This document shows positions 19,235 to 58,148 of a DNA stretch of 64,000 bases, piece by piece. Position numbers and translations under genes: made by a program. How positions within the stretch are numbered: position 1 is the stretch's first letter; each line of letters starts with the position of its first letter. The stretch is from an uncultured Alphaproteobacteria bacterium (lineage in GTDB: Bacteria; Pseudomonadota; Alphaproteobacteria; CAAHEQ01; UBA3637). Below the pieces are notes generated by a model, which did no database searches, was not told the origin of the DNA, and saw nothing but the letters and a program-made list of their open reading frames with translations. The stretch covers positions 143,091 through 207,090 of the forward strand of contig CALXZG010000001.1 in the NCBI GenBank assembly GCA_944393195.1, read 5' to 3'.

Positions 19235-19843
19235 ATGTCTATTTTATCTGAAAAATGTCGATATTATGCACAAAAATTACATGCCGGAGTTGTTTATGAA
19301 AACGGCTCGGATACAGCGGAACAGGTCAAAGGAATAGCCTCTTTGGTTAGTATCTATTCACGGTTGTTCGGGTATAAAAAGGAAGTCGTGATTTCCGCCG
19401 CATACCTGTCAAAATGTTTGGATGCCAAACGAATTAGGGAAGGTGTTTCTCCCTTAACGATAGCGCAGGTTGAAAAAATCGGTGGCCCGGATATTTGTCG
19501 GATTGTGACGGAATTAAGCACGGAACAGGAAACAACAGGATTGTCTGAAACCGAAAAATGGCAGGAAAAAGCCGCTTGGGCCAAAAGGTTATCCCAAGAT
19601 GCTCAGGAAATTTTATTGGCAGAACATGCCTTGAATTTTCAAATTGCCCATGATCGGCCGGATTCACAAAAAACATTGCAAAGCCAAAAAGAATACTTTG
19701 AAACACGTATGCTTGTGGTAAATGAAATTGCTTCCGCTAATCAGGGGTTATCTCATTTGGCTACCGTCATGAGTCGTGAAGCGTTGATTAAAATCAACGG
19801 AGCGCTGGCACAACAACGCCATGCGGATCGCGACGGGCGATAA
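19235..19843 (+). CDS. Hypothetical protein
   Basis: ATG 19235 (MSILSEKCRYYAQKLHAG) follows an AAGGA RBS and lies downstream of the promoter at 19161. No confident domain assignment from sequence alone. Confidence 0.5.
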   Translation: MSILSEKCRYYAQKLHAGVVYENGSDTAEQVKGIASLVSIYSRLFGYKKEVVISAAYLSKCLDAKRIREGVSPLTIAQVEKIGGPDICRIVTELSTEQETTGLSETEKWQEKAAWAKRLSQDAQEILLAEHALNFQIAHDRPDSQKTLQSQKEYFETRMLVVNEIASANQGLSHLATVMSREALIKINGALAQQRHADRDGR

Positions 19844-19863
19844 TTGGGTATTACCTAAAATAA

Positions 19864-19891
19864 CAGAGGCTCTTCAGAGCCTCTTTTCTTA
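19864..19891. terminator. Bidirectional rho-independent terminator
   Basis: AGAGGCTCTTCAGAGCCTCT hairpin with flanking T/A runs, between convergent genes. Confidence 0.6.
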
Positions 19892-20314
19892 TTCCATTTC
19901 CTCCCGTAAGATAACTCCCTCGTTTATTGCGGCTACGGCTCTTTGTATAAAAATAGGAACATTGTCAGGCAACTTGTCCCAATCCGCTACAATAATATCG
20001 CCACATTTTTCCGGTTCGCAATTGCAAACGGTTCCCTGCCACCGATGGCATTCAAAATAAAACTGTAAATACTCTTCGCCGGCATCATGATGTAATATCA
20101 ATCGCAGATTTAAATCAGCCGGTTTGATATCAATTCCGACCTCTTCACGCGCTTCACGAATCATACCGTCTTTTAACGTTTCATTCCCGTCTAAATGACC
20201 GGCGATAAAACAATATTGTCCGGCAAAAGAAGCATTTTTACGTAATTGTAAATAGACCTGCTTCCCCTGTCGCAGAATTAAAAACAGCCCGACGGGCACT
20301 TTAAACCGTTCCAT
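19889..20314 (-). CDS. NUDIX hydrolase
   Basis: Nudix box GHLDGNETLKDGMIREAREEVGI. Confidence 0.85.
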   Translation of the reverse strand: MERFKVPVGLFLILRQGKQVYLQLRKNASFAGQYCFIAGHLDGNETLKDGMIREAREEVGIDIKPADLNLRLILHHDAGEEYLQFYFECHRWQGTVCNCEPEKCGDIIVADWDKLPDNVPIFIQRAVAAINEGVILREEME

Positions 20315-20381
20315 TTTGTCTCCTTATTTTTTTGCAAAGTGTACCTGATCTACCCCTAAAATGCAAGATATAAAAAAATAG

Positions 20382-20410
20382 CTTGCATTTTTCCGGAAAA
20401 TAGCATATAC
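20382..20410 (+). promoter_or_regulatory. Putative tRNA promoter
   Basis: TTGCAT, 17-nt spacer, TATACA, ending ~13 nt before the tRNA 5' end. A 10-bp inverted repeat AAAATGCAAG/CTTGCATTTT (20357-20390) overlaps the -35 element. Confidence 0.4.
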
Positions 20411-20423
20411 AAGTAACAGTTCG

Positions 20424-20500
20424 CGGAATGTAGCGCAGCCTGGTAGCGCACTTGTCTGGGGGGCAAGTGGCCGCGGGTTCAAATCCCGCCATTCCGACCA
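20424..20500 (+). tRNA. tRNA-Pro (anticodon GGG)
   Basis: Hand-folded cloverleaf: acceptor stem CGGAATG/CATTCCG, T-arm GGGTTCAAATCCC, anticodon stem CTTGT/GCAAG (one G-U pair) with loop CTGGGGG (anticodon GGG, G37), encoded CCA at the 3' end. Confidence 0.8.
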
Positions 20501-20536
20501 ATATCAAAAAGCGGAAGTTTATACTTTCGCTTTTTT
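20496..20536 (+). repeat. Left copy of a 41-bp direct repeat (att-like), starting in the last 5 nt of tRNA-Pro
   Basis: GACCAATATCAAAAAGCGGAAGTTTATACTTTCGCTTTTTT. Repeated at 24136-24177 with one substitution and one extra T. Contains a terminator-like hairpin. Confidence 0.8.
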
Positions 20537-20790
20537 ATGAGGTGATTGCCCGATAACCTATCGGTTCGAGATTAAAGCCCCTCTCTCAACCACAAAAGGG
20601 CATCTTCTTGTCTGAAAAGCAAATTAACCTCTTCTGTAGAAAGTTTTGTCTCAAGAGTTTGGGATTTGACAAACAATACCTATCATCAGCTATTAAAGCT
20701 TCTTATACGGGTTGATCTATCCTACAAACAAAAAAACAAATGCCTGCTCGGAAAAAACAGCATTTATAGCTTATGTATCTCATTTTTATC

Positions 20791-20819
20791 TTGCTTGTCC
20801 GCATATGACATGATACAAT
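20791..20819 (+). promoter_or_regulatory. Putative sigma-70 promoter of the islet gene
   Basis: TTGCTT, 17-nt spacer, TACAAT (20814-20819), ~50 nt upstream of the GTG start. Confidence 0.45.
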
Positions 20820-20867
20820 AGTCAGTTATATAGCATATATTTGATAATAGAGAAGGAGCAGTTATTC

Positions 20868-23800
20868 GTGCACAATAGATATTCAAACGGTCATGAGAGT
20901 GGACGTGCCGCATTGGAAATGATTCTAGTCTTATGTATTATGGGGATTTTGAGTATAGCCATTGTTGTGGGTGCCCATTACGCTATCATTCGAGCGCAGG
21001 TTGTTGAAACAGAGAATCTGATTTCCAAGTCTGTTGCCGGTGTTCGGACAAGCCATTATTTGGAAAATCTATCTCATCAATATGAAGCAGAAAATGAGGA
21101 TTTATTTGCCTTGGCTGAAAAAATTGAAACATCCTTTTATATCAGCGATATTGCTTTATCCCAACCCGGTGATAAGGAATATGATTTGTATGGTGGAGAA
21201 AACTTTAAAGGGCCGGCCGGAACGGTGATTTCTGCTAATGTTTTAGTAAATGGATTAGGTCTTATTATCAACCTAAACCAAATATCAACAGAAATTTGCG
21301 AAGCCATATTAGAACATAAATTAGGCTATGAGGCGGCTTTTCGTTTAAATGATTTATATTCACAGGGCGGATATTTAAGTATCAGTGATAATAGCATCTT
21401 CCACGCACAAGACAGTGTGATTGGCTCAACCGGCGCTGAGGTGCGCACAAGATTGTGCGCTCCGGATATAAAAGATGCTTATGGATTAGAGAACGTTGCA
21501 CATATCGGATTATTATTCAGTGCTTCTCCTGATAGGAATATCTCATTTGACTGTGAAGGGGCTTGTTCTTCATGTACACAGTGTATTCTAGATATGTGTC
21601 TACCAATCAAGAAAGACATTTGCGGAGAGCTGGCCTATTATGACTACCAAAGCTGCTCTTGTCGATGCTATGCCAATACCAGTGGGGATCCTCACACAAA
21701 GTGTGAATGTCCATCCGGCACATTTTTTGACACAGATAAAAAGAAATGCGTCTTATGCCAAACGGATCAGGATTGTTATCAACAAAACCCCTATAAACCT
21801 TTTTGTGAAGAGGATGGCATGGCTTGTTGGGGATGTTCAGATTACGCCAAAACAGACGATAGCTATAAAAACTCGGTTTTTGTGTTGCCAAGCAACAGTC
21901 CTGGCACCCAAGAGCCTCAGAACTTTGATCCAAGCAGTACCTGCTTAACCTGTGCGGCGCAAGGTCTTCACGAAAAGTGGGTAGATAATAATTTGCTGTG
22001 TGTGGAGTGTAATACGGATGATGATTGTCACCACCAGGAAACTTTGCGTATCTGTGATCAAGAGACCAACACATGCGTCTGCCCCGGCATGATGACATGG
22101 AACGATAAGTCCGGACGATGTGAGTGTATTGTAGATGTATCGGGAGATCATTTTGACAACCAAAACTGTGTCTGTGCGACAGGGTATGAAACCGTGATAA
22201 CAACCAATGCGGAGAATCAAGAGGACATATCCTGTTTCTCACCTTGTGTTGGACTGGGAATGACAGGCGTTCGTGAAAATGGCGTGTGTTTATGTGATAC
22301 CAGTAAGGGATATTTAAGATTGGCCATCTCGACCGACGATAATGGACAACCCATTACTCCCTATTGTCCCTGTGACACTGATCAGGGATATTTTCAAGAT
22401 GCCAATGGTGGGTGTGTCAAATGTCATCCTATATCCGATGAACAAAAGAAGGCCTTTGAAGATGGTTCTATTGATCCCCATACATATGTGGATACATGGA
22501 ACTGTGGCCGTTCGTATCTAGGGTTTGTACGCTGGTTTAATCCGGACTATACACAAGATGCGCGTCTGACTAACGGTGAAAAATATTGTCCTGACGGATG
22601 GGTATTGAAACGAGAGCATGATGTCACCAAAGAGCTCAAAATCGATGATAGAACCTATCAGGTCATTGATGTAGACAAGTCCAGCGGTTTATTTAAATGT
22701 ACCCCATGTCGGGATCTAACGGATCCCAATGGAAAACCTGCCATAGCGGAGGGAACGGGTTGGGGATATTGTGGATGCGGTCGCTATACGATCCCAATAT
22801 ACTATACAGCTGAGAATGCTCTGAACAATAAGCGGGGCTCAGGAGGCACTTGTCAAAGTTCTTGCTATGACACCTATAAAGCATGGTATCAAAACGAAAC
22901 GAGTGAGGATGCCACTGCCAGAAAGGGATATCATCTAGATTCTTTTGATGCAAGAAATTCCTCTTTTGGAACAGGAAGTGAGGCCGAAGGATGTGGATGG
23001 AATTGGAACTATAATTTTATCAGCGATCAACCGGGACAACGATTTGAAGATATCGCTATTCCCCAGGGAAAAGATGAGTGGAAAAAGGTCAACATTGCTC
23101 GCACAGATTGTGGGATAAACGGAGAACGCCCTCTTTGGGATAAAAACGGGCGTAGAAACTTTTCTTATGAGCGCTGGTATAGAAACACTCCTCAGAAGTG
23201 TCATCCGGGCAACCATTACTATTATCAAACGATGAGCGGTGATTGTTCCTATGAAAAAGGATGCACCACGACGTATCTCTCTTTGGCGGCTTGCGGCGCT
23301 AATGTTCAGATAAAAGATTGCACCTGCGAAGGGAGTTATGTTGCTCGGGGGGCGAATAAGGACATTTGCTGTCATAAAAATCAATACCTGAAGGGTAGCC
23401 AATGTGTTTATTGTCCGACGGGACAAATTCCCAATATGGATGGCACGGCTTGTATCGTATGTAAAGCCGGAGAATATGTCGAAAATGGAGCATGCTTGGC
23501 ATGTCCAGCCGGTTCCGAGCCTAATACCGACAAAACCGGTTGCATTGCTTGTCGAGAAGGATATGCGGTCCAAAACGGAACATGTCAAAAATGCCCCAGC
23601 GGATATATTCCCAATACAAATAAAACAGCATGTGAAGCCTGTAAAAACGGCATGATTGTCATATCCGAGTATCAGAATGGTCTATTAACCAAGACCTATT
23701 GTGATTGCCCCAAGACTCAGTTCGAGGTTAAAGACAACGTCACGGGAGAGACCTACTGTCGAACCTCAGAGGAGGATAAATGCTATAATGGTGTCTGCTG

Positions 23801-23966
23801 CTCATCAGGTAAATACCCGGTCTGTACAGATGAACATTGTACCAATACCAGATGTTGTCCGGATGGTTATACTCTGTTTGGAAGTGACACCTGCATTATC
23901 TGTCCGGAGGGAACAAAAACAATAGAGTCAACACCTAATTCAGGCCGATATGCTTGTGGGGCTTAA
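20868..23966 (+). CDS. Large pilin-like (class III signal peptide) Cys-rich secreted/surface protein with eukaryote-like furin-like CxxC repeat array
   Basis: GTG 20868 lies 9 nt after a strong AGAAGGAG RBS; the ORF-track TTG at 20841 overlaps the RBS. N-terminus VHNRYSNGHESG|RAALEMILVLCIMGILSIAIV: Gly, Glu at +5, Gly-Ile-Leu at +14 to +16 match the type IV pilin helix. The remaining ~980 aa carry more than 100 Cys. The C-terminal third holds 6 consecutive ~19-aa units CxxCPxGxxPNxxxTxC (about 23363-23660), which is furin-like/GFR Cys-rich character. Confidence 0.75.
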   Translation: MHNRYSNGHESGRAALEMILVLCIMGILSIAIVVGAHYAIIRAQVVETENLISKSVAGVRTSHYLENLSHQYEAENEDLFALAEKIETSFYISDIALSQPGDKEYDLYGGENFKGPAGTVISANVLVNGLGLIINLNQISTEICEAILEHKLGYEAAFRLNDLYSQGGYLSISDNSIFHAQDSVIGSTGAEVRTRLCAPDIKDAYGLENVAHIGLLFSASPDRNISFDCEGACSSCTQCILDMCLPIKKDICGELAYYDYQSCSCRCYANTSGDPHTKCECPSGTFFDTDKKKCVLCQTDQDCYQQNPYKPFCEEDGMACWGCSDYAKTDDSYKNSVFVLPSNSPGTQEPQNFDPSSTCLTCAAQGLHEKWVDNNLLCVECNTDDDCHHQETLRICDQETNTCVCPGMMTWNDKSGRCECIVDVSGDHFDNQNCVCATGYETVITTNAENQEDISCFSPCVGLGMTGVRENGVCLCDTSKGYLRLAISTDDNGQPITPYCPCDTDQGYFQDANGGCVKCHPISDEQKKAFEDGSIDPHTYVDTWNCGRSYLGFVRWFNPDYTQDARLTNGEKYCPDGWVLKREHDVTKELKIDDRTYQVIDVDKSSGLFKCTPCRDLTDPNGKPAIAEGTGWGYCGCGRYTIPIYYTAENALNNKRGSGGTCQSSCYDTYKAWYQNETSEDATARKGYHLDSFDARNSSFGTGSEAEGCGWNWNYNFISDQPGQRFEDIAIPQGKDEWKKVNIARTDCGINGERPLWDKNGRRNFSYERWYRNTPQKCHPGNHYYYQTMSGDCSYEKGCTTTYLSLAACGANVQIKDCTCEGSYVARGANKDICCHKNQYLKGSQCVYCPTGQIPNMDGTACIVCKAGEYVENGACLACPAGSEPNTDKTGCIACREGYAVQNGTCQKCPSGYIPNTNKTACEACKNGMIVISEYQNGLLTKTYCDCPKTQFEVKDNVTGETYCRTSEEDKCYNGVCCSSGKYPVCTDEHCTNTRCCPDGYTLFGSDTCIICPEGTKTIESTPNSGRYACGA

Positions 23967-23991
23967 ACCATATGGTAAACTGATGATAATC

Positions 23992-24018
23992 GAGCGGGGT
24001 CTTCCCGCTCTGTTTCGT
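23992..24018 (+). terminator. Putative terminator of the islet gene
   Basis: GAGCGGG-gtctt-CCCGCTC hairpin followed by TGTTTCGT. Confidence 0.4.
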
Positions 24019-24135
24019 ATCTGGGAACGCTTGTCCATACTAAAGTATGTCTTGCCAACAAAGTACGTGGCTTGAGCAATCCTTGTCAACAGGCTGAATG
24101 ATAAACACGACACTGAATCTTAGACTTATCAAGCT

Positions 24136-24177
24136 GACCAATATAAAAAAGCGGAAGTTTATACTTTCGCTTTTTTT
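24136..24177 (+). repeat. Right copy of the 41/42-bp direct repeat
   Basis: GACCAATATAAAAAAGCGGAAGTTTATACTTTCGCTTTTTTT. Confidence 0.8.
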
Positions 24178-24417
24178 GTTGTCTTACCCATTTAGATTTC
24201 CTTTCTTTTGATTAACGAAATTCAGTATACAGCAATCATATGCAAAATCAATCTTTTTTATGAATCCATATGAAAAAAGATATTTCCCGGTTATTGGTAC
24301 TAATAATCCCGTTATTCCGGACGAAAGCATGCCTGTCTTTTCACCGCTAATCGATTGACAAGTTTCCTTTTTCCGCTTATCTGAACCCTGGATGACGGGA
24401 ATCCGAAAGGGGGAAAC

Positions 24418-25542
24418 ATGAATAAAGAACGGGTTCTGCTATGGCTGATTATTTTGATCTTGGGCGGTTTGCTGGCTGTTATGATATGGGATAATCAACG
24501 CCATCCGCCTGTGATGCCAATCCCGAAAAACACGAACCAACCTCTGTCGGTTCCCACGCAAACACGTCGGCCGGAATCCGTTGCATTGACCGAAACGTAT
24601 CTGGGGAGTGTGCAAGCCATTCACGCTGTTCCCGTTCAACCCTACCTGTCCGGGTTTATTGAAAAAATACAGGTCAAAGGTGGACAATTTGTCAAAGCCG
24701 GTGATTTGCTGTTCGTTTTGCAACAAGAAACGTATCAGGCCGCCCGGGATCAGGCTTTGGCGCAAGCGGCTCAGGCCGAAGCCAATCTGGCCAATGCAAA
24801 GGCTTACCTGGAACGAATTCGAAACACAGCCTCCAAAGCCGTTTCTAAAACCGAATTGGATAATGCAACGGCCTCTTTTTTATCTGCGCAAGCAAATGTA
24901 AAAGCTGCCCAAGCCGCCGTTAAAACTGCCGAAGTTAATTACGGATATACCGAAATCAAAGCCCCGATTGACGGTGTTGTCGGTAACGTCAATGTTACGG
25001 TCGGCGACTATGTTTCGCCGACTTCCCGACCCTTGGTGACAATTGTGCAATATGACCCGATACGGGTCGTTTTTTCGATTCCGTATCAAAAATATGCCAC
25101 CCTTATCGGATCGGTTTTTGATGGTTGGCAGATGCATTTAAAATTATCTGACGGCAAGGTGTATCCCGAAACGGGTGAAATGCGTTTTACGGATAATCAG
25201 GTTAATGCCCAAACGGCTTCGGTTCGATTGTATGCGGATTTTAAAAATGCCGATAACATACTCTTGCCAAATGCGTTTGTAACAGTCTTGATGACGAAAC
25301 GGGTTCAAGGAATCCTGATCAACAAAGGATGGATCAGCCTGACACCGGACGGTGATTTTATATATATTTTAAAGGATGGTCGTATTCAAAAACAACCGGT
25401 GATATTGGGACCGGCCGTCGGTGATTCTTTTGTGATAACACAAAACCTGCCGGATAAGTATGTTGTTATTACGGGGCAAGTGCACCCCTCCCAAATCGGA
25501 CATCCCGCCGTATCCGTTCCAACCGATACAAAGGGGGAATAA
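24418..25542 (+). CDS. RND efflux periplasmic adaptor (membrane fusion protein)
   Basis: N-terminal TM, then lipoyl/beta-barrel adaptor architecture. Immediately upstream of the RND pump with ATGA-type coupling. Confidence 0.85.
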   Translation: MNKERVLLWLIILILGGLLAVMIWDNQRHPPVMPIPKNTNQPLSVPTQTRRPESVALTETYLGSVQAIHAVPVQPYLSGFIEKIQVKGGQFVKAGDLLFVLQQETYQAARDQALAQAAQAEANLANAKAYLERIRNTASKAVSKTELDNATASFLSAQANVKAAQAAVKTAEVNYGYTEIKAPIDGVVGNVNVTVGDYVSPTSRPLVTIVQYDPIRVVFSIPYQKYATLIGSVFDGWQMHLKLSDGKVYPETGEMRFTDNQVNAQTASVRLYADFKNADNILLPNAFVTVLMTKRVQGILINKGWISLTPDGDFIYILKDGRIQKQPVILGPAVGDSFVITQNLPDKYVVITGQVHPSQIGHPAVSVPTDTKGE

Positions 25543-28500
25543 ATGGATATATCGCGCTTTTTTATCGAAAAGCCTCGTTTTTCCGGTGTTATTGCCGTCG
25601 TAATGGTCTTAATCGGGTTGATTGCCATCGTTGTTTTGCCTGTGTCGCAATACCCCCAAATTACACCGCCTCAGATTGTTGTGACGGCCACTTATCCCGG
25701 TGCCGGTGCAACGGTTTTGACCGATACGGTGGCCGTGCCGATTGAAAATGCCCTAAACGGTATTGACGGCGTATTGTATATGTCCTCTACTTCCTCGGAC
25801 GATGGTACATATCAATTGACGATTACGTTTAATATCGGCGTTGATCCCGATATGGCTCAGGTTAAAGTTGAAAACAGATTACAACAGGTTAAATCCCTTC
25901 TGCCCGATATTGTGAATCAGGAAGGTTTGAATGTCAAAACACAATCCGCCAATATTTTGGGCTTTATGGTATTGGAATCTCCGGGACATACATTTACAGG
26001 CTTGGAACTCAGTAATTTTGCCTATACGACAATTCAAAATCCGTTGGGACGCGTGCCGGGTGTCGGCGATGTTACGGTGTATGGTCCCCAAAACAGTATG
26101 CGGATATGGTTGGATCCTTTGAAGTTAGCCGGCTTAAATTTGTCGGCCTCGGATGTTGTTCAGGCAATTGAAAGCCAAAATACCCAGGCTGCCTTGGGGA
26201 GTATCGGTTCGGCCCCTGTTTCCGGAAACAATAATTTAGTGTTGGGTTTGACAACCAAAGGACTCTTAACGTCCGTATCCGATTTTGAAAATATCACGAT
26301 AGCTTCCTCATCGGACGGCGGTCTTGTTCGTTTAAAAGATGTTGCCCGTATTGAAATCGGTGCCGATAATTATAATCTAAGCGCCGAATACAATAACGAA
26401 CCATCCGTGATTATTGCGCTCAGCCAAACACCGGGATCAAATGCGTTGACAACCATGAAATCATTACGTACAGAAATCGAAACTCTGCAACGTTCTTTCC
26501 CGGATGATATGATTTTGAAAATAGCCTATGATTCAACGGATTTTGTGCGTGCTTCCATTGAAGGTATTATTTCAACGTTGGTGATTACCTTCCTGCTTGT
26601 TATCGGGGTTGTGTATTTGTTTTTGCAAAATTTAAAAGCAACCGTTATTCCGATGTTGACCATACCGGTATCCTTAATCGCCACATTTATGGTCATTTAC
26701 GCCATCGGATTTGATATTAATATCCTGACCTTGTTTGCATTGATTTTAGCTATCGGCTTGGTTGTGGATGATGCCATTATTGTTGTCGAACGTGTTCAAT
26801 ATTTAATGCAATACCGCCATATGGATTCCGTTTCGGCCGCTGTTCAGGCTATGAAAGATATCGGTAGTTCCATTATTGCGACTACATTGGTTCTATTATC
26901 CATTTTTGTTCCAGTCGGTATGATGGCCGGTATTACCGGTGAAATTTATAAACAATTCGCTATTACAATCGCTACCGCCGTTTTGTTTTCGGCCGTTAAC
27001 GCCCTGACGTTGAGTCCGGCCTTATGCGCTATCTTTTTAAGGCAAAAAGAAAATATTAAAAACAAAAATAAAAATAAAAACTTATTTTGTTATTTTAATG
27101 TATTACTTGATAAATTGCAAAACGCTTATTTACAGGTGGTGGGATGGCTTACGGCCCACTTGGGCGTAATGGTTTTATTGGTTGGTGCGGTGATTGGAAG
27201 TGTGATTCTGTTGTTCCTACGGACACCACAATCTTTTATTCCGGAGGAGGATCAAGGGGTTATTTTTGCCAGTATTCAATTACCCGATACAGCCGGCATT
27301 GATCAGACCGAGGCCGTTTTACGTGCATTGGGAACCCCGATTTTACAGGAAAAAGGTGTTGCCTATTTCATGGGTATTTCGGGGGCCAGTCTTTTGGGTG
27401 GTTCGGGTGAAAATATCGGTATGGCCGTCGTCGGCCTGAAACCATGGGATGAACGTGCCGGAAAAGAAATGACCAGTATGGCCATTGAATCTCGATTACG
27501 GACAAAATATGGCAATAATCCGAATGCCGATGTAAATTTCTTTGCTTTACCGGCCATTCCCGGTGTGGGAAACAGCGACGGTTTGTCTTTTCAACTCAAC
27601 GCTGTTACGGCAACGGCAACAACGGATGATTTGGCCAAGGCATTGGATCATATTCTGATGACCCTTAACCAAAACAAAAAAGAATTTTCCTATGCGTTCA
27701 GTACCTTTATTCCCGGTACACCCCACTTATACCTGGATATTGATCGGGATAAACTGGCGGCTTATGATATTCCGGTCGGTACGTTCTTCGAAACACTCCA
27801 AAACAATATCGGTTCCCGATACGTGAATAACATTACCTTGATGGGACAAATCAACCAAGTCGTGATTCAGGCGGATTTTCCCAGTCGTGCCGATATTGAA
27901 GATGTCCTGAATCTCTATGTACCGGCACGAAACGGTGCATTGGTGCAAGTACGCAACTTTGCGTCTGTCAGAACGGTTTTGATGCCGTCCGCCATTAACC
28001 GCTACAATCAATATTTAACGGCGGCCGTTACGGCGGCAACGGCTTCGGGTGTTAGTACGGGAACGGCCATAGCCACGGTTGATAAAACGGCAGCTTCTCT
28101 GGGAAAAGCATTCAATATCGCCTGGACGGGATTAAGCCTGCAAGAAGTTGAAACGGCCGGATTGGCTCTGATTTTAATTGCATTGGCTGTTGTGTTTAGT
28201 TATTTGTTTCTGGTAGCTCTTTATGAAAGTTGGTTGATAGCTTTGGCCGTTATTTTTACAAACGTGTTTGCCGTCTTGGGGGCTTTAATGGGATTAACAT
28301 GGATGGGACTTCCGCTCAGCATTTACGCCCAGTTGGGAATCGTTCTCCTCATCGGGTTGGCCAGTAAGAACGCTATTTTAATTGTTCAATTCACATTGTC
28401 TTACCACCGCCAAGGCATGCCGATTTTACAAGCCGCCGTTAAAGGTGCCGGAGAGCGTTTCCGAGCCGTTGTCATGACCGCCTTGACTTTTATTTTAGGT

Positions 28501-28701
28501 GTTATGCCCATGATTTTTGCCACCGGTGCCGGTGCGGGAAGTCAGGTTTCCATGGGGACAAGCGTCTTTTTCGGCATGATTATCGCAACGGCCGTCGGCA
28601 TTTTGTTCGTTCCGGCCTTATTCGCGTTGTTTGCCTCTGTGTCGGATTACTTCGCCCGTTCACAACCGATTCAACCGAAACAAAGGAGACATCAAAAATG
28701 A
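25543..28701 (+). CDS. RND family (HAE1, AcrB/MexB-like) inner-membrane efflux pump
   Basis: 1052 aa with the 12-TM two-large-loop architecture. Contains a KNKNKNKN insertion encoded by an (AAAAAY)4 tract. Confidence 0.9.
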   Translation: MDISRFFIEKPRFSGVIAVVMVLIGLIAIVVLPVSQYPQITPPQIVVTATYPGAGATVLTDTVAVPIENALNGIDGVLYMSSTSSDDGTYQLTITFNIGVDPDMAQVKVENRLQQVKSLLPDIVNQEGLNVKTQSANILGFMVLESPGHTFTGLELSNFAYTTIQNPLGRVPGVGDVTVYGPQNSMRIWLDPLKLAGLNLSASDVVQAIESQNTQAALGSIGSAPVSGNNNLVLGLTTKGLLTSVSDFENITIASSSDGGLVRLKDVARIEIGADNYNLSAEYNNEPSVIIALSQTPGSNALTTMKSLRTEIETLQRSFPDDMILKIAYDSTDFVRASIEGIISTLVITFLLVIGVVYLFLQNLKATVIPMLTIPVSLIATFMVIYAIGFDINILTLFALILAIGLVVDDAIIVVERVQYLMQYRHMDSVSAAVQAMKDIGSSIIATTLVLLSIFVPVGMMAGITGEIYKQFAITIATAVLFSAVNALTLSPALCAIFLRQKENIKNKNKNKNLFCYFNVLLDKLQNAYLQVVGWLTAHLGVMVLLVGAVIGSVILLFLRTPQSFIPEEDQGVIFASIQLPDTAGIDQTEAVLRALGTPILQEKGVAYFMGISGASLLGGSGENIGMAVVGLKPWDERAGKEMTSMAIESRLRTKYGNNPNADVNFFALPAIPGVGNSDGLSFQLNAVTATATTDDLAKALDHILMTLNQNKKEFSYAFSTFIPGTPHLYLDIDRDKLAAYDIPVGTFFETLQNNIGSRYVNNITLMGQINQVVIQADFPSRADIEDVLNLYVPARNGALVQVRNFASVRTVLMPSAINRYNQYLTAAVTAATASGVSTGTAIATVDKTAASLGKAFNIAWTGLSLQEVETAGLALILIALAVVFSYLFLVALYESWLIALAVIFTNVFAVLGALMGLTWMGLPLSIYAQLGIVLLIGLASKNAILIVQFTLSYHRQGMPILQAAVKGAGERFRAVVMTALTFILGVMPMIFATGAGAGSQVSMGTSVFFGMIIATAVGILFVPALFALFASVSDYFARSQPIQPKQRRHQK
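27058..27081 (+). repeat. Hexanucleotide SSR (AAAAAY)x4 inside the RND pump gene
   Basis: aaaaac aaaaat aaaaat aaaaac, in frame, encoding NKNKNKNK. Confidence 0.7.
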
Positions 28702-30128
28702 AATGGGGAATCAACCTGATTTTATTGTCTGGTATTGTCGGATTGGGAATTGCGGCCTGCATGGTCGGTCCGGATTATGTCCGTCCGACCGTGGTTTCTG
28801 ATCAGGCTGTTCGGAATGCCTTGTCTCTTCATTCGGAACAGTCGGGAAATACCGCGCCGTTTACCCTTTTGGATTTTAATGATCCGGTACTTAACGACCT
28901 GATAGCCTTGGCCGAACGTAACAGTCCGACCTTGAAACAAGCGGTCGCCCGCTTAAAGCAAGCCCGTGCAACCCTTCGAATGACGACGGCGGCCGAGGCG
29001 CCCGAGTTAGATGCCGGGGCAAAATACAACGCCCTTCGGGAAAGCAGAAATATGGGATTAATGACGGATGATGATTACTATCAGGTCGGATTGGACGCTT
29101 CATGGGAATTGGATGTTTTCGGTGGTAATCGTCGGCGAACAGAGGCTGCCGAAGCCGGTTGGATCGGTGCCCAAGCCGCTTTGGCGGATGTCCGTGTTTC
29201 TTTGGCGGCGGAAGTGGCTTTGAGCTATATCCGCTTGCGAACAACGGAGGAGTTATTACAACGTGCCAAGGAAAACCTTGCCATACAAAAAGGCATTGCC
29301 CAATTAACGCAGGATAAATACGATACGGGGCTAACGGATGCCATTTCCCTCAAACAGGCGCGCTATGCCGTCGAAAATACGCGTGCCACTATTCCGCAAT
29401 TGCAGGCCGAGGCGACGGTCCAACGGAATGCCTTGGCTCTGTTAACCGGCCAACTTCCGGGGATGGTGGATGATTTATTGGCTTCCGCACACAATAATTT
29501 GGTTAATCAACCGTTTCGTTATCCCTTAAACACATTATACGATTTACCGGTCGATATCATTCGCCGTCGTCCGGATGTTCGGGCAGCGGAGGAATCCTTG
29601 ATCGCCCAAAACGCCTTAATCGGTGCGGCTGTTGCCGATTTGTATCCGAAGATTAGTGTCACGGGTTTTCTGGGATTTGAATCTCTGAAAGGCAGTGATT
29701 TAATCACGGGAAAGAGTTTTATGGCCAATGCGGTTCCTCAGGTTAGTTTACCGATTTTTCACTTCGGAGCCCTGAAAAATAATGTCGAACTGCAAAAACA
29801 AAAGAAGGAAGAACAGGTGGCGGCTTATGAACAGGCTGTTTTGCAAGCGGCCGGCGATATTCGGAACGCGCTTGTCAACTTGGAAAACGAACAAAAACGC
29901 AACCGATCGGCGCGGGCGGCTTATCGCAATATGACAGAAGCCGCCGAACTAACCCGTAACCGGTACCAAAACGGATTGATCGAATATACGGATGTATTGA
30001 ATGCCGAAGAACGTCGCTTGTCGGCTCAGGAGCAAATGATTCAATCCAACGGACAACAATATCAAAATATCATCTCTTTCTATAAAGCTATTGGCGGCGA
30101 TACCGTTTTTAATCATCACGCTGAATGA
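28698..30128 (+). CDS. Efflux outer-membrane factor lipoprotein (NodT/OprM family)
   Basis: Lipobox ...GIAAC, two TolC-like repeats. Start overlaps the pump stop. Confidence 0.9.
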   Translation: MKWGINLILLSGIVGLGIAACMVGPDYVRPTVVSDQAVRNALSLHSEQSGNTAPFTLLDFNDPVLNDLIALAERNSPTLKQAVARLKQARATLRMTTAAEAPELDAGAKYNALRESRNMGLMTDDDYYQVGLDASWELDVFGGNRRRTEAAEAGWIGAQAALADVRVSLAAEVALSYIRLRTTEELLQRAKENLAIQKGIAQLTQDKYDTGLTDAISLKQARYAVENTRATIPQLQAEATVQRNALALLTGQLPGMVDDLLASAHNNLVNQPFRYPLNTLYDLPVDIIRRRPDVRAAEESLIAQNALIGAAVADLYPKISVTGFLGFESLKGSDLITGKSFMANAVPQVSLPIFHFGALKNNVELQKQKKEEQVAAYEQAVLQAAGDIRNALVNLENEQKRNRSARAAYRNMTEAAELTRNRYQNGLIEYTDVLNAEERRLSAQEQMIQSNGQQYQNIISFYKAIGGDTVFNHHAE

Positions 30129-42144: not shown

Positions 42145-42174
42145 TACCCGTTTTACATTTATATACTGATGATG

Positions 42175-42207
42175 AAAGGGGACGATTTTCATTGTCCCTT
42201 TTTTATT
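42175..42207 (+). terminator. Rho-independent terminator
   Basis: AAAGGGGAC-gattttcatt-GTCCCTTTT followed by TTTTATTG. Confidence 0.6.
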
Positions 42208-42276
42208 GTTGATAAGCCCCTTATTCTTATACTTTTGATAATCTGTGGTATTGCATGGCTTATAAAGCAGTCCGTT

Positions 42277-42398
42277 ATCCTCTATAATTTTACGTCATCC
42301 TTGCGAAAGCGGAGATCTTTTAACCATCCTACTCCCTCATCCTCTATAATTTTACGTCATTCCCGCGTAGGCGGGAATCTTTGGACGCATACACTCTT
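42277..42398 (+). repeat. Tandem ~62-bp repeat (2 units); each unit carries a TATAAT box and a hairpin
   Basis: Both units start ATCCTCTATAATTTTACGTCAT. Unit B then has the perfect palindrome ATTCCCGC-GTAG-GCGGGAAT (42359-42378); unit A has a degenerate copy (ATCCTTGCGAAAGCGGAGAT). Confidence 0.7.
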
Positions 42399-42516
42399 CC
42401 AATTCCAACATCCGCTTGCCGGCGGCGACTTCCGCTGCCTTGGCACGCGGTGTTTCATTGCTTTGCGCATCAAAACTTGCCACCGGCAACTTTTGATTTA
42501 CGCAGTATCCTTGGGC

Positions 42517-42843
42517 TTGACCCGAGAATCTTCCAACGCACACAACGAACGGGGTCGGAGTATGGTTGAAATGTTGGGCGTTCTGGCCGTAGCCGGTGTG
42601 TTATCGATCGGTGGCGTGGCCGGGTATCGGTATGCGATGGACAAGATGAATGCGAATGACATTATTAACGAAGTAAAAAAAAGAGCCGTGACGGCAAGTC
42701 AACAACGGATTTTGGGACAGAATATCAGTTTAGCAGAGTACGGGGATAACGGACGGATTAAAGGAATTCATACTGTCACAGCGACAAACGATTATGCGGG
42801 TGACAAAGGGTTCTTTGCATTAACGGTATCGGCGGTACCGTAA
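42517..42843 (+). CDS. Small pilin-like protein (prepilin-type N-terminus); possibly the N-terminal fragment of a disrupted pilin-EGF fusion gene
   Basis: Leader ...TRESSNAHNERG|RSMVEMLGVLAVAGVLSIGGV parallels the islet protein (NGHESG|RAALEM...): Gly, Arg at +1, Glu at +5, Gly at +14. Start uncertain: TTG 42511, TTG 42517 or ATG 42562, none with a good RBS. Ends at TAA 42841-42843, which is in frame with the next ORF. The ORF-track 42169 start is rejected because the upstream part is repeat/non-coding DNA. Confidence 0.5.
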   Translation: MTRESSNAHNERGRSMVEMLGVLAVAGVLSIGGVAGYRYAMDKMNANDIINEVKKRAVTASQQRILGQNISLAEYGDNGRIKGIHTVTATNDYAGDKGFFALTVSAVP

Positions 42844-42867
42844 CGGGTATGCGATGCAATTCTGAAA

Positions 42868-43611
42868 ATGGATTGGAATATGCCGGTTGAAACAGCCGTT
42901 GGGGAATTTATCGTAGATGATGACACGGTATGCGCCGAAGGCGATAATGAAATGTTGTTTGCTTTCCATAATACCTTGGACAACTCACTCGTCCCGGGGG
43001 AAGGGGGAGAAGAAACCCTGAGTCCAGATGAAGCAAAGTGTTCCGGAAATGGAACGTGGGATGGAACAGCTTGTGCCTGTGCCGATGGTTGGATCGGGGA
43101 TGATTGTTCAACATCGTGTGTGCTTAAAGGACGTGATGGCAATTGTTATTCTTGTGATAGCACAGAAATCGTTAGGATTGATGATAGCGCGGATTGCCGT
43201 GTTTGTGATGGTGTGACCGAAACAAAGCGATATATATCCTTTCAAAATGGAAAAACATGTGTTTTAGGAAATGATTGTCCCGATGGGTCAACACCGGACG
43301 ACTCGACGGGATATTGTGAATGCCCCAACGGACAATTTTTTACCTTGGGTTTTAGCAACACATGCGTGACATGCGAAGACGCTTTTGATGATGATCATAT
43401 TTCAGTTTTAGAGGACAAGGTAGACGAAATTTGTAGTATGTGTGGATTGGACGTAACGGATTATTATGCGCCGAACAAACAAGCAATTGACGGATCACTG
43501 ATTTGTGTCAACCTCGATGAAGCAAAGTGTTCCGGTCATGGAACGTGGAACGGATGTGGATGTGATTGTGACACCGGTTGGTGTGGGAGTGGTTGCTCAA
43601 CGGGGTATTAG
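42868..43611 (+). CDS. Cys-rich EGF-like domain protein with no signal peptide; likely the C-terminal portion of the upstream pilin-like gene (pseudogene or readthrough)
   Basis: Same reading frame as 42517-42843, separated only by TAA plus 24 nt. Two EGF-like signatures: CSGNGTWDGTACACADGWIGDDC and CSGHGTWNGCGCDCDTGWCGSGC. 38 Cys in 247 aa. No secretion signal of its own. Confidence 0.5.
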   Translation: MDWNMPVETAVGEFIVDDDTVCAEGDNEMLFAFHNTLDNSLVPGEGGEETLSPDEAKCSGNGTWDGTACACADGWIGDDCSTSCVLKGRDGNCYSCDSTEIVRIDDSADCRVCDGVTETKRYISFQNGKTCVLGNDCPDGSTPDDSTGYCECPNGQFFTLGFSNTCVTCEDAFDDDHISVLEDKVDEICSMCGLDVTDYYAPNKQAIDGSLICVNLDEAKCSGHGTWNGCGCDCDTGWCGSGCSTGY

Positions 43612-48109: not shown

Positions 48110-48805
48110 ATGACACATGTAACACTTTCGATTTTATACGGATTCCTCATCGGATTATTGCTGCCGGCCATTGCCGGTCGCTTCGGTAAGATTTTACCTG
48201 CCGACCCCGGTCTTGTTCTTCTTCGCCTGATCCATTTTCCCCGTTGCCCCCATACCGATAACCGATCCCGTCGTCACCGCTTTTTCCGGTTGTGGGGTAA
48301 ATTCACCGCCTTCACACTCCTTTGGGGTGTCCTGCTTGCCACTTTGTTTGGAATAATAGATCTCTTTATAACACCCGGCTTTATCCTGTGGGCCAAAGTA
48401 TTTACCACCATTATCTGCCTGTGCGTTATTATCGATCAAAAATATCTTCTGTTGCCCGACTTTTTTACAATCCCTCTGCTCCTGATCGGATGGGCGGCGG
48501 CCGTGTATATCGGTATCGTACCGGTTGAATATAGCTTAGCCGGTGCCGCTTTCGGGTATCTGGTTTCTACTCTTTCCGTTGTCTTAATGGGACTTTTTCG
48601 CCATCCGGAATTCGGGGGCGGGGACGTAAAAATGGTCACGGCTCTCGGGGCATGGTTCGGAATGCCGGGATTAAACTTTACCCTGATCTTGGCCTTTTTA
48701 CTGTTCGCAATGCCCGCCACACTCGCTTCTCGCAGGCGTGGTCCGTTCGGTCCCGCTTTGGGAGTGGCCGCCTTGATAACCCTGTTTATAATTTACGGCA
48801 AATAA
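48110..48805 (+). CDS. Prepilin peptidase (A24 family), single-domain form
   Basis: Polytopic membrane protein with both catalytic Asp motifs: IIDQKYLLLPDFF (compare ID..H.LLPD) and GGGDVKMVTALGAWFG (compare GMGDVKLLAALGAWLG). Only a single Cys (RCPH) where PilD has its tetracysteine loop. Confidence 0.7.
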   Translation: MTHVTLSILYGFLIGLLLPAIAGRFGKILPADPGLVLLRLIHFPRCPHTDNRSRRHRFFRLWGKFTAFTLLWGVLLATLFGIIDLFITPGFILWAKVFTTIICLCVIIDQKYLLLPDFFTIPLLLIGWAAAVYIGIVPVEYSLAGAAFGYLVSTLSVVLMGLFRHPEFGGGDVKMVTALGAWFGMPGLNFTLILAFLLFAMPATLASRRRGPFGPALGVAALITLFIIYGK

Positions 48806-58147: not shown

Positions 58148-58148
58148 T

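What the first reader, a model, noticed from the sequence alone, without database searches (positions are those of the whole stretch)
20496..24177. 3.6-kb single-gene islet bounded by 41-bp direct repeats immediately 3' of tRNA-Pro
A 41-bp sequence (GACCAATAT[C/A]AAAAAGCGGAAGTTTATACTTTCGCTTTTTT) begins in the last 5 nt of tRNA-Pro(GGG). It recurs 3.64 kb downstream with a single substitution. Between the copies lie only the large pilin-like Cys-rich gene, its promoter and its terminator. Duplication of a tRNA-proximal segment is the classic footprint of site-specific integration at a tRNA locus. The cargo appears to use AGA/ATA/GGA/CTA codons more than the neighbouring core genes (impression by eye, not computed). 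No integrase is present, so the islet may be a decayed or satellite element, or it may be mobilised in trans.
Basis: seen in the sequence. Interest (0 to 1): 0.7.

Follow-up and report, generated by a model that had tools for sequence, protein, structure and literature searches.

The report
Strain-variable gene cassette beside tRNA-Pro
A 3.6-kb single-gene insert, bracketed by two copies of the tRNA-Pro trailer/terminator, is one of several alternative gene sets that strains of an uncultured gut alphaproteobacterium carry at this spot; it is a real accessory cassette, but no integrase has been found for it.

Summary
It consists of the last 5 nt of tRNA-Pro(GGG) plus that tRNA's own trailer and intrinsic terminator.

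The segment it brackets is accessory. Contigs whose flanks are 99% identical carry at least four other gene sets between tRNA-Pro and the RND operon. In one strain the same cassette, with both repeats, lies next to a type III R-M/DrmD defence block instead of the tRNA.

The cargo is a 1032-aa protein with a type IV pilin-like signal and 83 Cys. Its codon usage is atypical (AGA, CTA, GGA) and resembles a lower-GC relative. That relative's native tRNA-Pro trailer is identical to repeat copy 1.

No integrase was found in the islet, the window, or the related loci examined.

In several related genomes the recombination junctions fall exactly at (CC)GACCA. My best reading (about 0.45) is a single crossover at the tRNA's extreme 3' end. 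The repeat looks long only because donor and recipient share the conserved trailer. RecA-mediated exchange through the repeat (0.3) is not excluded.

Verdict: a new member of a known kind (tRNA-linked islet in a hotspot), moderately interesting.

The parts
19889..20314 (-). NUDIX hydrolase gene. It is the last conserved core gene on the left of the variable site.
   Evidence: Pfam NUDIX 3e-12. An identical protein is present on 16 contigs whose DNA matches the window at about 99% up to the tRNA.
20424..20500 (+). tRNA-Pro(GGG) with an encoded CCA. It forms the left anchor of the hotspot.
   Evidence: ARAGORN. The same tRNA sits at the same place in strain types A, B and C.
20494..20500 (+). 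CCGACCA (end of the acceptor stem, discriminator, CCA). This is the proposed crossover core. It is inferred, not shown.
   Evidence: It is the only sequence common to all junction types seen: tRNA|trailer, tRNA|mini-element...AAGCCGACCA|trailer...AAGCCGACCA|mini-element, and the 19-20-nt tRNA-end repeats.
20496..20536 (+). Repeat copy 1: GACCA plus the trailer and intrinsic terminator, with C at repeat position 10.
   Evidence: Together with the 15 tRNA bases upstream of it, it is 56/56 identical to the tRNA-Pro 3' fragment plus native trailer of a lower-GC relative, L035 8029-8084.
20537..20867 (+). 5' non-coding part of the cargo. It holds a promoter-like TTGCTT-17 nt-TACAAT (20791-20819), the RBS GAAGGAG (20852-20858), and a minus-strand terminator-like hairpin (20600-20579).
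   Evidence: Sequence reading. It has no similarity to any of the other loci compared.
20868..23966 (+). Cargo gene of 1032 aa. It has a type IV pilin-like signal (G|RAALE followed by a hydrophobic helix), a family domain of about 230 aa, and Cys-rich repeats (83 Cys, 8%; furin/TNFR-like CxxC repeats around residues 840-930).
   Evidence: Only this species appears at more than 90% identity among 5.8e9 clusters. HMMER finds 508 distant relatives. The family profile hits PDB type IV pilins, best E = 8.5e-4. Codon bias.
23992..24010 (+). The cargo gene's own intrinsic terminator. Because of it, repeat copy 2 is not needed to terminate the cargo transcript.
   Evidence: 8 pairs, 6 GC, T-rich tail; -15 kcal/mol.
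24131..24140 (+). Right end of the cassette, AAGCTGACCA. In sister strains it reads AAGCCGACCA. The same 10-mer ends the R-M/DrmD block in L034, L039 and L041.
24136..24176 (+). Repeat copy 2, with A at position 10 as in the tRNA-proximal copy of strains lacking the cassette. I read it as the displaced resident trailer/terminator.
   Evidence: It is followed by TGTTGTC, which matches 6 of the first 7 nt of module M (TGTTATC) that natively follows the trailer in other strains and species.
24177..24417 (+). A 7-nt remnant of module M (24177-24183), then the RND operon's upstream region. Homology with type B strains resumes at 24185 and with type D at 24271.
   Evidence: BLAST breakpoints and junction sequences.
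24418..30128 (+). RND efflux operon (MFP, AcrB-type pump, OEP). It is the conserved right anchor of the hotspot.
   Evidence: Pfam. An identical MFP is present on 11 contigs with different upstream cargo.

Best explanation
The islet is an integrase-less accessory cassette sitting in a recombination hotspot between tRNA-Pro(GGG) and an RND efflux operon of an uncultured gut alphaproteobacterium.

Shown: the cassette is present in some strains and replaced by other gene sets in others. It also travels with both repeats into a different left-hand context.

Inferred:
- It entered by one reciprocal (Campbell-type) crossover between a circular or donor DNA and the chromosome, at the extreme 3' end of the tRNA (core about CCGACCA, possibly extending into AATAT).
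- The crossover was catalysed by a recombinase encoded elsewhere.
- The donor was a lower-GC relative in which the cargo lay just downstream of the orthologous tRNA-Pro trailer.
- Because donor and recipient share this conserved trailer/terminator, the duplicated segment looks 41 nt long. Copy 1 is the incoming trailer and now terminates the tRNA. Copy 2 is the displaced resident trailer.
- The cargo is a prepilin-peptidase-type, Cys-rich surface or pilus-associated protein, plausibly a strain-specific adhesin or antigen.
For: 1. Hotspot. Flanks that are 98.6-99.6% identical surround different cargo:
- type A (window, L002/L033, L004, L031);
- type B (L001, L005: truncated Mod, TPM, DUF3137, LemA);
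- type C (L010, L011: DinB, DUF1737, Macro);
- type D (L007: Ham1-like);
- L034 (type III R-M + PDC-S13 + DrmD, then cassette A).
Sources.

2. Divergence between strain types starts inside the repeat, at position 10-16, not at its end.

3. Copy 1 carries C at position 10 and is identical to the native trailer of L035. Copy 2 carries A, as do the tRNA-proximal copies of types B and C. This is what a crossover to the left of position 10 predicts.

4. Cargo codon usage (AGA .26, ATA .24, GGA .44) matches L035 core genes (.19.27.39) and not window core genes (.04.11.23).

5. Junctions fall exactly at GACCA in independent contexts:
- A 315-nt Mod-upstream segment ending ...AAGCCGACCA is 99% identical in L034, L039 and L041. 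It continues into the repeat and cassette A in L034, but into a mini-element of about 190 nt in L039/L041.
- The same trailer and module M follow tRNA-Pro(GGG), tRNA-Pro(TGG) or tRNA 3' fragments in different genomes.

6. Related genomes carry tandem mini-elements bounded by 19-20-nt repeats of the tRNA-Pro 3' end. This shows recurrent recombination at this end in the clade.

7. SNP density in the islet between strains is 0.36%, against 0.95% in the flanks (Fisher p = 4e-4). This fits a spread later than the divergence of the flanks.

8. Copy 2 is redundant for the cargo gene, which has its own terminator.
Against: - No recombinase gene was found in the islet, in the 64-kb window, or among the called genes of the related loci examined.
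- No empty site and no circular junction was recovered.
- CCGACCA alone occurs 15 times in the window, which is chance level, so it cannot by itself define specificity.
- The single C/A difference between the copies could be a point mutation.
- Copy 2's hairpin resembles copy 1 more than it resembles the type B resident trailer, so gene conversion or a different resident allele must be assumed.
- The L034 arrangement rests on one scaffold whose left end is missing.
- A 41-nt repeat is long enough for rare RecA-dependent exchange.
Confidence: 0.45

Rival explanations
1. Homologous (RecA-dependent) recombination explains the structure, with no dedicated site-specific enzyme. The conserved tRNA-Pro trailer (41-46 nt) acts as a portable patch of homology. 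A circle or a transformed fragment carrying one or two copies recombines with the chromosomal trailer, or a pre-formed repeat-cassette-repeat block is imported by double crossover in the flanks.
For: - The repeat is 41 nt (46 nt in L034) and 95-98% identical, above the minimal length usually needed for RecA exchange (general knowledge).
- Its boundaries coincide with the ends of shared homology.
- No integrase was found anywhere.
- Module M and the Mod fragment are mosaic between species, which shows ordinary recombination in this region.
- The lower SNP density of the islet fits strain-to-strain import.
Against: - Several exchanges end precisely at GACCA where there is no homology on the right-hand side: L034 versus L039/L041, and the swap of tRNA isoacceptors.
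- Homologous recombination cannot create the first duplicated copy.
- Type C diverges after only 15 shared nt.
Confidence: 0.3
2. One reading: a once-autonomous tRNA-integrating island or prophage with its own integrase inserted here, then decayed in place to a single gene while keeping attL and attR.
For: - Direct repeats abut a tRNA, presence is strain-variable, and codon usage is foreign-like.
- CIMEs are defined as such decayed remnants.
Against: - The repeat lacks the tRNA body. Catalogued tDNA islands cross over in the anticodon loop, the T loop or the T/acceptor junction, and leave a recognisable tRNA fragment.
- The 75 nt upstream of copy 2 show no significant tRNA remnant (p at least 0.056 for all five tRNA-Pro genes tested).
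- No integrase pseudogene or other mobile-element remnant was noticed in the 331- and 169-nt non-coding parts. These had no nucleotide match to any other locus compared, but no translated search was run on them.
- The cassette is the same 3.6 kb in every contig that spans it.
Confidence: 0.1
3. Nothing was inserted. The gene is ancestral at this position and the second terminator copy arose by a local duplication or by convergence. The other strains have lost the gene.
For: - Overall GC of the islet is within the range of the window.
- The cassette has diverged about 0.4% between strains, so it is not brand new.
Against: - The strains lacking it do not carry a simple deletion. They carry other genes at the same junctions.
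- The nearest other species (L021) has none of it.
- The gene is restricted to this species at more than 90% identity.
- Rare-codon usage is significantly foreign.
- Copy 2 includes the tRNA's GACCA, which a terminator of independent origin would not have.
Confidence: 0.04
4. Assembly artefact: the repeat made an assembler thread a separate (for example circular) contig into the chromosome.
For: Contigs assembled with k = 31 break exactly at the shared 31-mer (L003, L013, L019). Short-k graphs therefore cannot distinguish an integrated form from an excised one.
Against: - Independent assemblies from other samples give the same structure.
- In the sister strain, copy 2 has a loop SNP that removes the shared 31-mer, and Logan contigs L004 and L031 run straight from the cargo through copy 2 into the RND operon.
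- The tRNA-copy 1-cargo junction is present in the window and in L002/L033. There are no Ns in the window or in L034.
Confidence: 0.03

Closest known systems
tRNA/tmRNA-integrated genomic islands (Islander-type tDNA islands; Williams 2002, Hudson et al. 2015)
   Same: An intact tRNA gene lies at one end and a direct repeat at the other. The incoming DNA supplies the sequence that now follows the tRNA, and the original is displaced to the far end. Presence is strain-variable and codon usage is foreign-like.
   Different: - There is no integrase gene.
- The displaced 'fragment' holds only 5-7 nt of the tRNA, and the rest is the trailer/terminator.
- The size is one gene (3.6 kb).
- The catalogued crossover subsites are the anticodon loop, the T loop and the T/acceptor junction. 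From memory, Williams 2002 also describes an asymmetric 3'-end sublocation, which would be the nearest match.
CIMEs (cis-mobilizable elements): att-flanked remnants without integration or transfer genes
   Same: The cassette is flanked by att-like direct repeats and has no recombinase or transfer genes. It is found in tandem with another cargo block (L034), as in accretion at the att site next to a tRNA 3' end (definition).
   Different: - No evidence shows that it derives from an ICE or IME.
- No partner ICE or integrase has been identified.
- Neither att function nor mobilisation has been demonstrated.
Chromosomal integration/recombination hotspots and 'genomic islets' between conserved core genes, often next to tRNAs
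   Same: The same core flanks (NUDIX-tRNA-Pro on one side, the RND operon on the other) enclose at least five different accessory contents in near-identical strains. The contents include defence genes (type III R-M, DrmD-like, PDC-S13, HNH).
   Different: The sharp recurrence of junctions at GACCA, and the repeat-bounded form of this one cassette, are more ordered than a generic hotspot requires.
Integron gene cassettes
   Same: Both are small cassettes, mostly of one gene, separated by hairpin-forming sites, arrayed at one locus and lacking a recombinase of their own.
   Different: - No IntI, attI or Pc was found.
- The boundary element is one conserved sequence (a terminator), not diverse attC sites with R/L boxes.
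- The cassette has its own promoter and terminator.
Elements that integrate with a host- or helper-encoded recombinase (IMEX at dif using XerCD; mobilizable islands that borrow an ICE integrase)
   Same: The cargo has no integrase of its own yet sits at a specific short site, flanked by repeats of that site.
   Different: The site is a tRNA 3' end, not dif or an ICE att site, and the enzyme is unknown.
Type IV pilin-like proteins with large C-terminal extensions (minor pilins and pseudopilins)
   Same: The cargo's N-terminus matches the class III signal logic (Gly, Glu at +5, hydrophobic helix). The family profile hits PilA, PilE, TcpA and geopilin in the PDB. A prepilin peptidase gene lies in the window at 48110-48805.
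   Different: - Position +1 is Arg, not Phe or Met.
- The match falls below the Pfam and NCBIfam thresholds.
- A Cys-rich extension of about 800 aa is far larger than in typical pilins.

Membership tests
tDNA genomic island (Islander definition) | Intact tRNA/tmRNA gene at one end of the element | tested here: met
   tRNA-Pro(GGG) at 20424-20500 abuts repeat copy 1.
tDNA genomic island (Islander definition) | Displaced fragment of the same tRNA gene, covering the crossover subsite (anticodon loop, T loop or T/acceptor junction), in direct orientation at the other end | tested here: not met
   Copy 2 shares only GACCA with the tRNA (CCGACCA in sister strains). The 75 nt upstream show no significant similarity to five tRNA-Pro genes (p at least 0.056).
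tDNA genomic island (Islander definition) | Tyrosine integrase gene inside the island | tested here: not met
   The islet has one ORF with no Pfam, NCBIfam or PADLOC recombinase hit. None of the window ORFs scanned has one either.
CIME (cis-mobilizable element) | Retains attL and attR (direct repeats of the attachment site) | tested here: inconclusive
   41-nt direct repeats are present, and 46 nt in L034. Whether they function as att sites cannot be shown from sequence.
CIME (cis-mobilizable element) | [quoted passage not shown] | tested here: met
   The only gene is the Cys-rich pilin-like protein.
CIME (cis-mobilizable element) | Derives from a decayed ICE/IME and can be mobilised in cis after accretion with one | not testable with these tools
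   No ICE or IME remnant was seen. Tandem accretion with an R-M/DrmD block in L034 is compatible with this but does not prove it.
Chromosomal integration hotspot / genomic islet | The same pair of core flanks encloses different accessory genes in different strains | tested here: met
   Types A, B, C, D and the L034 array share flanks that are 98.6-99.6% identical.
Integron cassette | attC recombination site, and an array headed by intI/attI | tested here: not met
   No IntI-like gene was found in the window or the loci. The boundary is a single conserved terminator sequence, and the cassette carries its own promoter-like region.
Intrinsic (rho-independent) terminator (the repeat itself) | GC-containing hairpin followed by a T-tract, placed at the 3' end of a transcription unit | tested here: met
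   One search lists copy 2 (14 pairs, then a T run). One search gives -16.3 and -19.2 kcal/mol with z = -4.7 and -7.1. Variants keep the stem (G-U in the window, G-C in type B).
   There are only 2 copies in 64 kb. All 7 metagenome hits, and L035-L037, lie after a tRNA-Pro gene or a tRNA-Pro 3' fragment. There are no hits in viral contigs.
Type IV pilin-like (prepilin peptidase substrate) protein (the cargo) | N-terminal Gly cleavage site, Glu at +5, and a hydrophobic alpha-helix of about 20 aa | tested here: met
   The sequence ...ESG|RAALEMILVLCIMGILSIAIVV. The family profile A3 aligns this region to PilA 9laa_A (E = 8.5e-4) and to eight other pilins. Four of 11 relatives touch Pfam N_methyl weakly.
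Type IV pilin-like (prepilin peptidase substrate) protein (the cargo) | Passes a curated family threshold (TIGR02532 / PF07963) | tested here: not met
   The window protein has no hit. Its relative P0008 scores 13 bits against a cut-off of 16.3.
Type IV pilin-like (prepilin peptidase substrate) protein (the cargo) | Cognate prepilin peptidase encoded in the genome | tested here: met
   Peptidase_A24 at window 48110-48805, E = 3e-17.

The most novel reading that the evidence does not exclude
The tRNA-Pro genes of this clade of uncultured gut Alphaproteobacteria may anchor an integron-like cassette system of a new kind. A single recombinase encoded elsewhere would cut at the extreme 3' end of tRNA-Pro (core CCGACCA). 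It would shuffle integrase-less units between tRNA-Pro isoacceptor loci and between species. The units would include non-coding mini-elements of about 190 nt in tandem arrays, defence blocks, and single-gene surface-protein cassettes such as this one. The tRNA trailer/terminator would serve as the cassette boundary and would insulate each unit transcriptionally.
Probability: 0.2. Interest if true: 0.7.

Novelty: new member of a known kind. Interest (0 to 1): 0.5.

Why it matters
The locus gives a concrete, testable example of how accessory surface-protein and defence genes are swapped at one tRNA-linked site among strains. The organism is an uncultured human/animal-gut alphaproteobacterium known only from metagenomes.

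If the junction rule (crossover at CCGACCA, with the trailer carried along) holds, it has practical consequences. Island-finding tools that demand a recognisable tRNA fragment and an integrase would systematically miss such cassettes. The responsible recombinase would also be a compact tool that targets tRNA-Pro.

The cargo family (pilin signal plus giant Cys-rich domain) is a candidate strain-specific adhesin or antigen.

If instead the exchange is plain homologous recombination through a conserved terminator, the locus is an ordinary hotspot.

Tried and rejected
- PLSDB megablast of 19800-24600: no match.
- Viral-contig scan for the repeat: none.
- Viral scans for the 19-20-nt tRNA-Pro 3' fragments: only high-GC phage attP sites reaching back to the anticodon stem, and jumbo-phage tRNA arrays. 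They are unrelated to this clade.
- Rfam on L024 and L025: only tRNAs.
- Module M tested as a structured RNA: weak consensus fold (-15 kcal/mol over 349 columns, little covariation). I treat it as regulatory/intergenic DNA.
- Search for an empty site or a circular junction among all fetched contigs: none. The k = 31 contigs simply break at the shared 31-mer.
- tRNA remnant upstream of copy 2: not significant.
- The one genome-contig scan (MFP) returned a single relative, L021. Its tRNA-Pro(TGG) locus is not syntenic on the left.
- The look-up through the truncated SNF2 protein did not find the left end of the L034 array. It landed on decayed copies of the same defence block, which by luck exposed the L035 tRNA-Pro array.
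- The Mod look-ups again did not reach a tRNA.
- L016 switches to 58% GC DNA 28 nt before the tRNA. I regard it as a probable chimeric scaffold.
- IS200/IS605-type, group IIC intron and integron mechanisms were considered because they use hairpins or terminators. I dropped them because there is no transposase, reverse transcriptase, IntI or matching end structure.
- The context of the distant homologue P0002 (L020) has no tRNA and no flanking repeat. The protein family as such is therefore not tied to tRNA islets.

Full report
**Observation.** ARAGORN places tRNA-Pro(GGG) at 20424-20500 on the + strand. The 41-mer GACCAATAT[C/A]AAAAAGCGGAAGTTTATACTTTCGCTTTTTT is found at 20496-20536 and 24136-24176. 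There is one mismatch, no other copy with up to 3 mismatches in the window, and none in 100 shuffles.

The repeat begins with the tRNA's last five bases (GACCA). The rest is an A-tract/stem/T-tract hairpin that folds at -16 to -19 kcal/mol, z = -4.7 to -7.1, and is listed by the terminator scan. So the repeat is the tRNA's 3' trailer and intrinsic terminator.

Between the copies are 331 nt of non-coding DNA, one ORF (GTG 20868 to 23966, 1032 aa), that ORF's own terminator (23992-24010), and 125 nt of spacer.

**Composition.** GC of the islet (0.40-0.46) is not distinct from the surrounding DNA.

| Codon | Cargo (fraction of its family) | 46 other window genes | Fisher p |
|---|---|---|---|
| AGA | 0.26 | 0.04 | 2e-5 |
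| CTA | 0.17 | 0.02 | 2e-6 |
| GGA | 0.44 | 0.23 | 4e-5 |
| ATA | 0.24 | 0.11 | 0.02 |

GC3 is 0.383 against 0.457 +/- 0.039, z = -1.9.

**Organism and strain comparison.** The nearest species representative is an 'uncultured Alphaproteobacteria bacterium' MAG whose MFP is 81% identical. Several matching contigs are labelled human-gut metagenome.

Exact-protein look-ups of the flanking NUDIX and MFP genes returned contigs 98.6-100% identical to the window in the flanks, but with different content between tRNA-Pro and the RND operon:

| Type | Contigs | Content |
|---|---|---|
| A | window, L002/L033, L004, L031 | the 1032-aa gene |
| B | L001/L009, L005 | 5.5 kb: truncated type III Mod fragment, TPM-domain, DUF3137 and LemA genes |
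| C | L010, L011, L015, L017, L018 | DinB, DUF1737, Macro |
| D | L007 | a Ham1-like gene |

The right-hand breakpoints differ: 24185 for B and 24271 for D. On the left, all types share the tRNA and GACCAATAT(A/C)AAAAA and then diverge. This is a strain-variable hotspot and the islet is accessory. No empty site was found.

**The repeat is not a generic terminator.** A scan of 241 million metagenome records for GACCAATATNAAAAAGCGGAAG gave seven loci.
- Six have the sequence directly after a different tRNA, tRNA-Pro(TGG).
- One (L024) has it after a tRNA 3' fragment, in an array downstream of tRNA-Pro(CGG).
- Three further loci (L035-L037) have it after a tRNA-Pro(GGG) 3' fragment.

In all of these loci and in type B, the trailer is followed by a conserved module of about 330 nt, which I call M (72-81% identity). 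M has no Rfam match (L024 and L025 scanned) and only weak consensus folding. In the window, copy 2 is followed by TGTTGTC, which matches six of the first seven bases of M (TGTTATC). It is then fused to the RND upstream region. Copy 2 therefore keeps the native right-hand context, and copy 1 keeps the native left-hand context (the tRNA). That is the geometry produced by a single-crossover insertion into the trailer region.

**The cassette in a second context.** In scaffold L029/L034 the same cassette (99.6% identical) with both repeats lies upstream of the RND operon. Its left neighbour there is not the tRNA. It is a block of type III Mod and Res, a PDC-S13/Bro-N protein and a DrmD-like SNF2 helicase. 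Both repeat copies in that strain are preceded by AAGCC, so the repeat is 46 nt.

The 315 nt upstream of Mod, ending ...GGGGCTTAAGCCGACCA, are 99% identical in two other low-GC genomes (L039, L041). There the sequence after GACCA is not the trailer and cassette. It is a non-coding mini-element of about 190 nt that ends in the 3' 19 nt of tRNA-Pro(TGG).

Related genomes also carry one to three such mini-elements in tandem behind tRNA-Pro genes. Each is bounded by a 19-20-nt repeat running from the T loop to CCA (L021, L024, L035). The only sequence common to all of these junction types is (CC)GACCA.

**Donor signal.** Copy 1, with the 15 tRNA bases before it, is 56/56 identical to the tRNA-Pro(GGG) 3' fragment and native trailer of the lower-GC species represented by L035. 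It has C at repeat position 10. Copy 2 has A, as do the tRNA-proximal copies of types B and C.

A Campbell insertion with the crossover to the left of position 10 predicts exactly this distribution: the incoming allele next to the tRNA and the resident allele displaced. The cargo's codon usage resembles L035 core genes and not window core genes. Between the window and its sister strain the islet has 0.36% differences against 0.95% in the flanks (p = 4e-4). The coding changes are 5 synonymous and 5 non-synonymous.

**Mechanism.**
- Shown: the repeat; the accessory status; the hotspot; the recurrence of junctions at GACCA; the foreign-like codon usage.
- Inferred: a single reciprocal crossover at the extreme 3' end of tRNA-Pro, carried out by a recombinase encoded elsewhere. 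The 41-nt repeat would then be the short core plus the orthologous trailer carried by both donor and recipient.

I put this at about 0.45. RecA-mediated exchange through the 41-46-nt trailer is the main rival (0.3). It explains the lack of an integrase, but not the exchanges that stop at GACCA without homology beyond it.

A classic island decayed in place (0.1) is disfavoured for two reasons. The repeat lacks the tRNA body, whereas catalogued tDNA islands cross over in the anticodon loop, the T loop or the T/acceptor junction (classes I and II). No tRNA remnant precedes copy 2.

An ancestral gene (0.04) and an assembly artefact (0.03) are unlikely. For the artefact, Logan contigs L004 and L031 read through copy 2 in a strain whose loop SNP removes the shared 31-mer.

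Weaknesses of the preferred reading:
- No recombinase was found in the window or among the called genes of the related loci examined.
- CCGACCA alone occurs 15 times in the window.
- The L034 array rests on one scaffold whose left end is missing.
- In the window strain the copy-2 core reads CTGACCA. Under the site-specific model this would make the cassette hard to excise.

**Cargo.** The protein begins ...HESG|RAALEMILVLCIMGILSIAIVV. It has 83 Cys (8%), concentrated in residues 231-500 and 801-1032. The word-indexed search found only the same species plus one weak hit. Full HMMER found 508 relatives of two kinds:
- about 15 proteins sharing the N-terminal domain (the closest align over residues 6-440);
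- many giant repeat proteins matching the CxxC repeats at about 840-930.

A profile of the N-terminal domain hits type IV pilins in the PDB through the signal and alpha-1 helix (PilA 9laa_A E = 8.5e-4, then geopilin, PilE, TcpA). The curated pilin models are not passed. The window also encodes a prepilin peptidase (48110-48805) and a second gene with the same signal and Cys-rich repeats (about 42532-43611). The cargo is best read as a prepilin-peptidase-processed, disulfide-rich surface or pilus-associated protein. Its actual function is unknown.

**Comparison and verdict.** The locus works like a tRNA-linked genomic islet, or CIME, in a chromosomal hotspot (CIME definition). It fails two defining features of Islander-type tDNA islands (tRNA fragment, integrase). 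It is not an integron cassette. I classify it as a new member of a known kind. An unusual feature is worth testing: a crossover at the very 3' end of tRNA-Pro, with the conserved trailer/terminator carried along. I score interest at 0.5.

Noticed in passing
L035 7659-7858 (second copy after an N gap, to 8048); L021 4831-5030; L024 about 2636-1985 (minus strand); L041 9679-9480 (minus strand): Non-coding mini-elements of about 190 nt sit behind tRNA-Pro genes of related MAGs. They occur singly or in tandem (up to three units in L024), each ending in a 19-20-nt copy of a tRNA-Pro 3' end. Each has its own terminator hairpin, an inverted plus forward T-arm-like segment, a GGCGGGCG..AAGAACGCCG hairpin and CAGCCCTTTAGGGTGA. 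They have no ORF, no integrase and no Rfam match.
   Followed up: partly
L001 4277-4608; L024 1937-1610 (minus strand); L027 8575-8246 (minus strand); L035 8085-8420; 7-nt remnant at window 24177-24183: Module M is a conserved stretch of about 330 nt directly after the tRNA-Pro trailer in four lineages. It lies upstream of different genes (dinB, type III mod, an HNH gene) and is mosaic between lineages. Its consensus folding is weak, so it is probably a regulatory region and not an RNA gene.
   Followed up: partly
L022-L028 versus L001, L035 and the window: The same trailer and module M (and dinB in L027 and L010) follow tRNA-Pro(TGG) in one species but tRNA-Pro(GGG) in others. The switch falls exactly at GACCA, so the tRNA isoacceptor itself appears to have been exchanged at this junction.
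   Followed up: partly
window 42169-43611 (+): A second gene carries the same pilin-type signal (ERGRSMVEMLGVLAVAGVLS) and EGF-like Cys-rich repeats. It is interrupted by a stop at 42841-42843, so it is either two ORFs or a pseudogene. It contains internal 86-nt and 50-nt repeats (D2 and D6).
   Followed up: partly
window 48110-48805 (+): A prepilin peptidase gene (Peptidase_A24) is present, consistent with processing of the pilin-signal proteins.
   Followed up: yes
window 57116-60326 (+): A pentapeptide-repeat protein is followed by a VirD4/TraG-type type IV secretion coupling protein, hinting at a conjugative or effector-translocating system nearby.
   Followed up: no
L034 1-7230; L001 4730-5275; L035 8537-11650; L038; L039-L041: A defence block of type III Mod/Res, PDC-S13 (Bro-N) and a DrmD-like SNF2 helicase recurs in several related genomes in intact, rearranged and truncated forms. 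Type B strains of the window species keep only a 181-aa Mod fragment in the opposite orientation.
   Followed up: partly
L016 1-3086: This scaffold is 99.8% identical to the window over the NUDIX gene. It switches to 58% GC DNA (HU, S4, a periplasmic binding protein) 28 nt before the tRNA. It is probably a chimeric assembly.
   Followed up: no
L027 6382-6780: A lone DUF2924 gene lies downstream of dinB near tRNA-Pro(TGG). From my own knowledge, this family often accompanies large serine recombinases. No recombinase is next to it here.
   Followed up: no
window 24134-24140: In the window strain the 7-mer before copy 2's trailer reads CTGACCA, against CCGACCA in sister strains and in the tRNA. 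If the core model is right, this strain's cassette may be locked in place.
   Followed up: no
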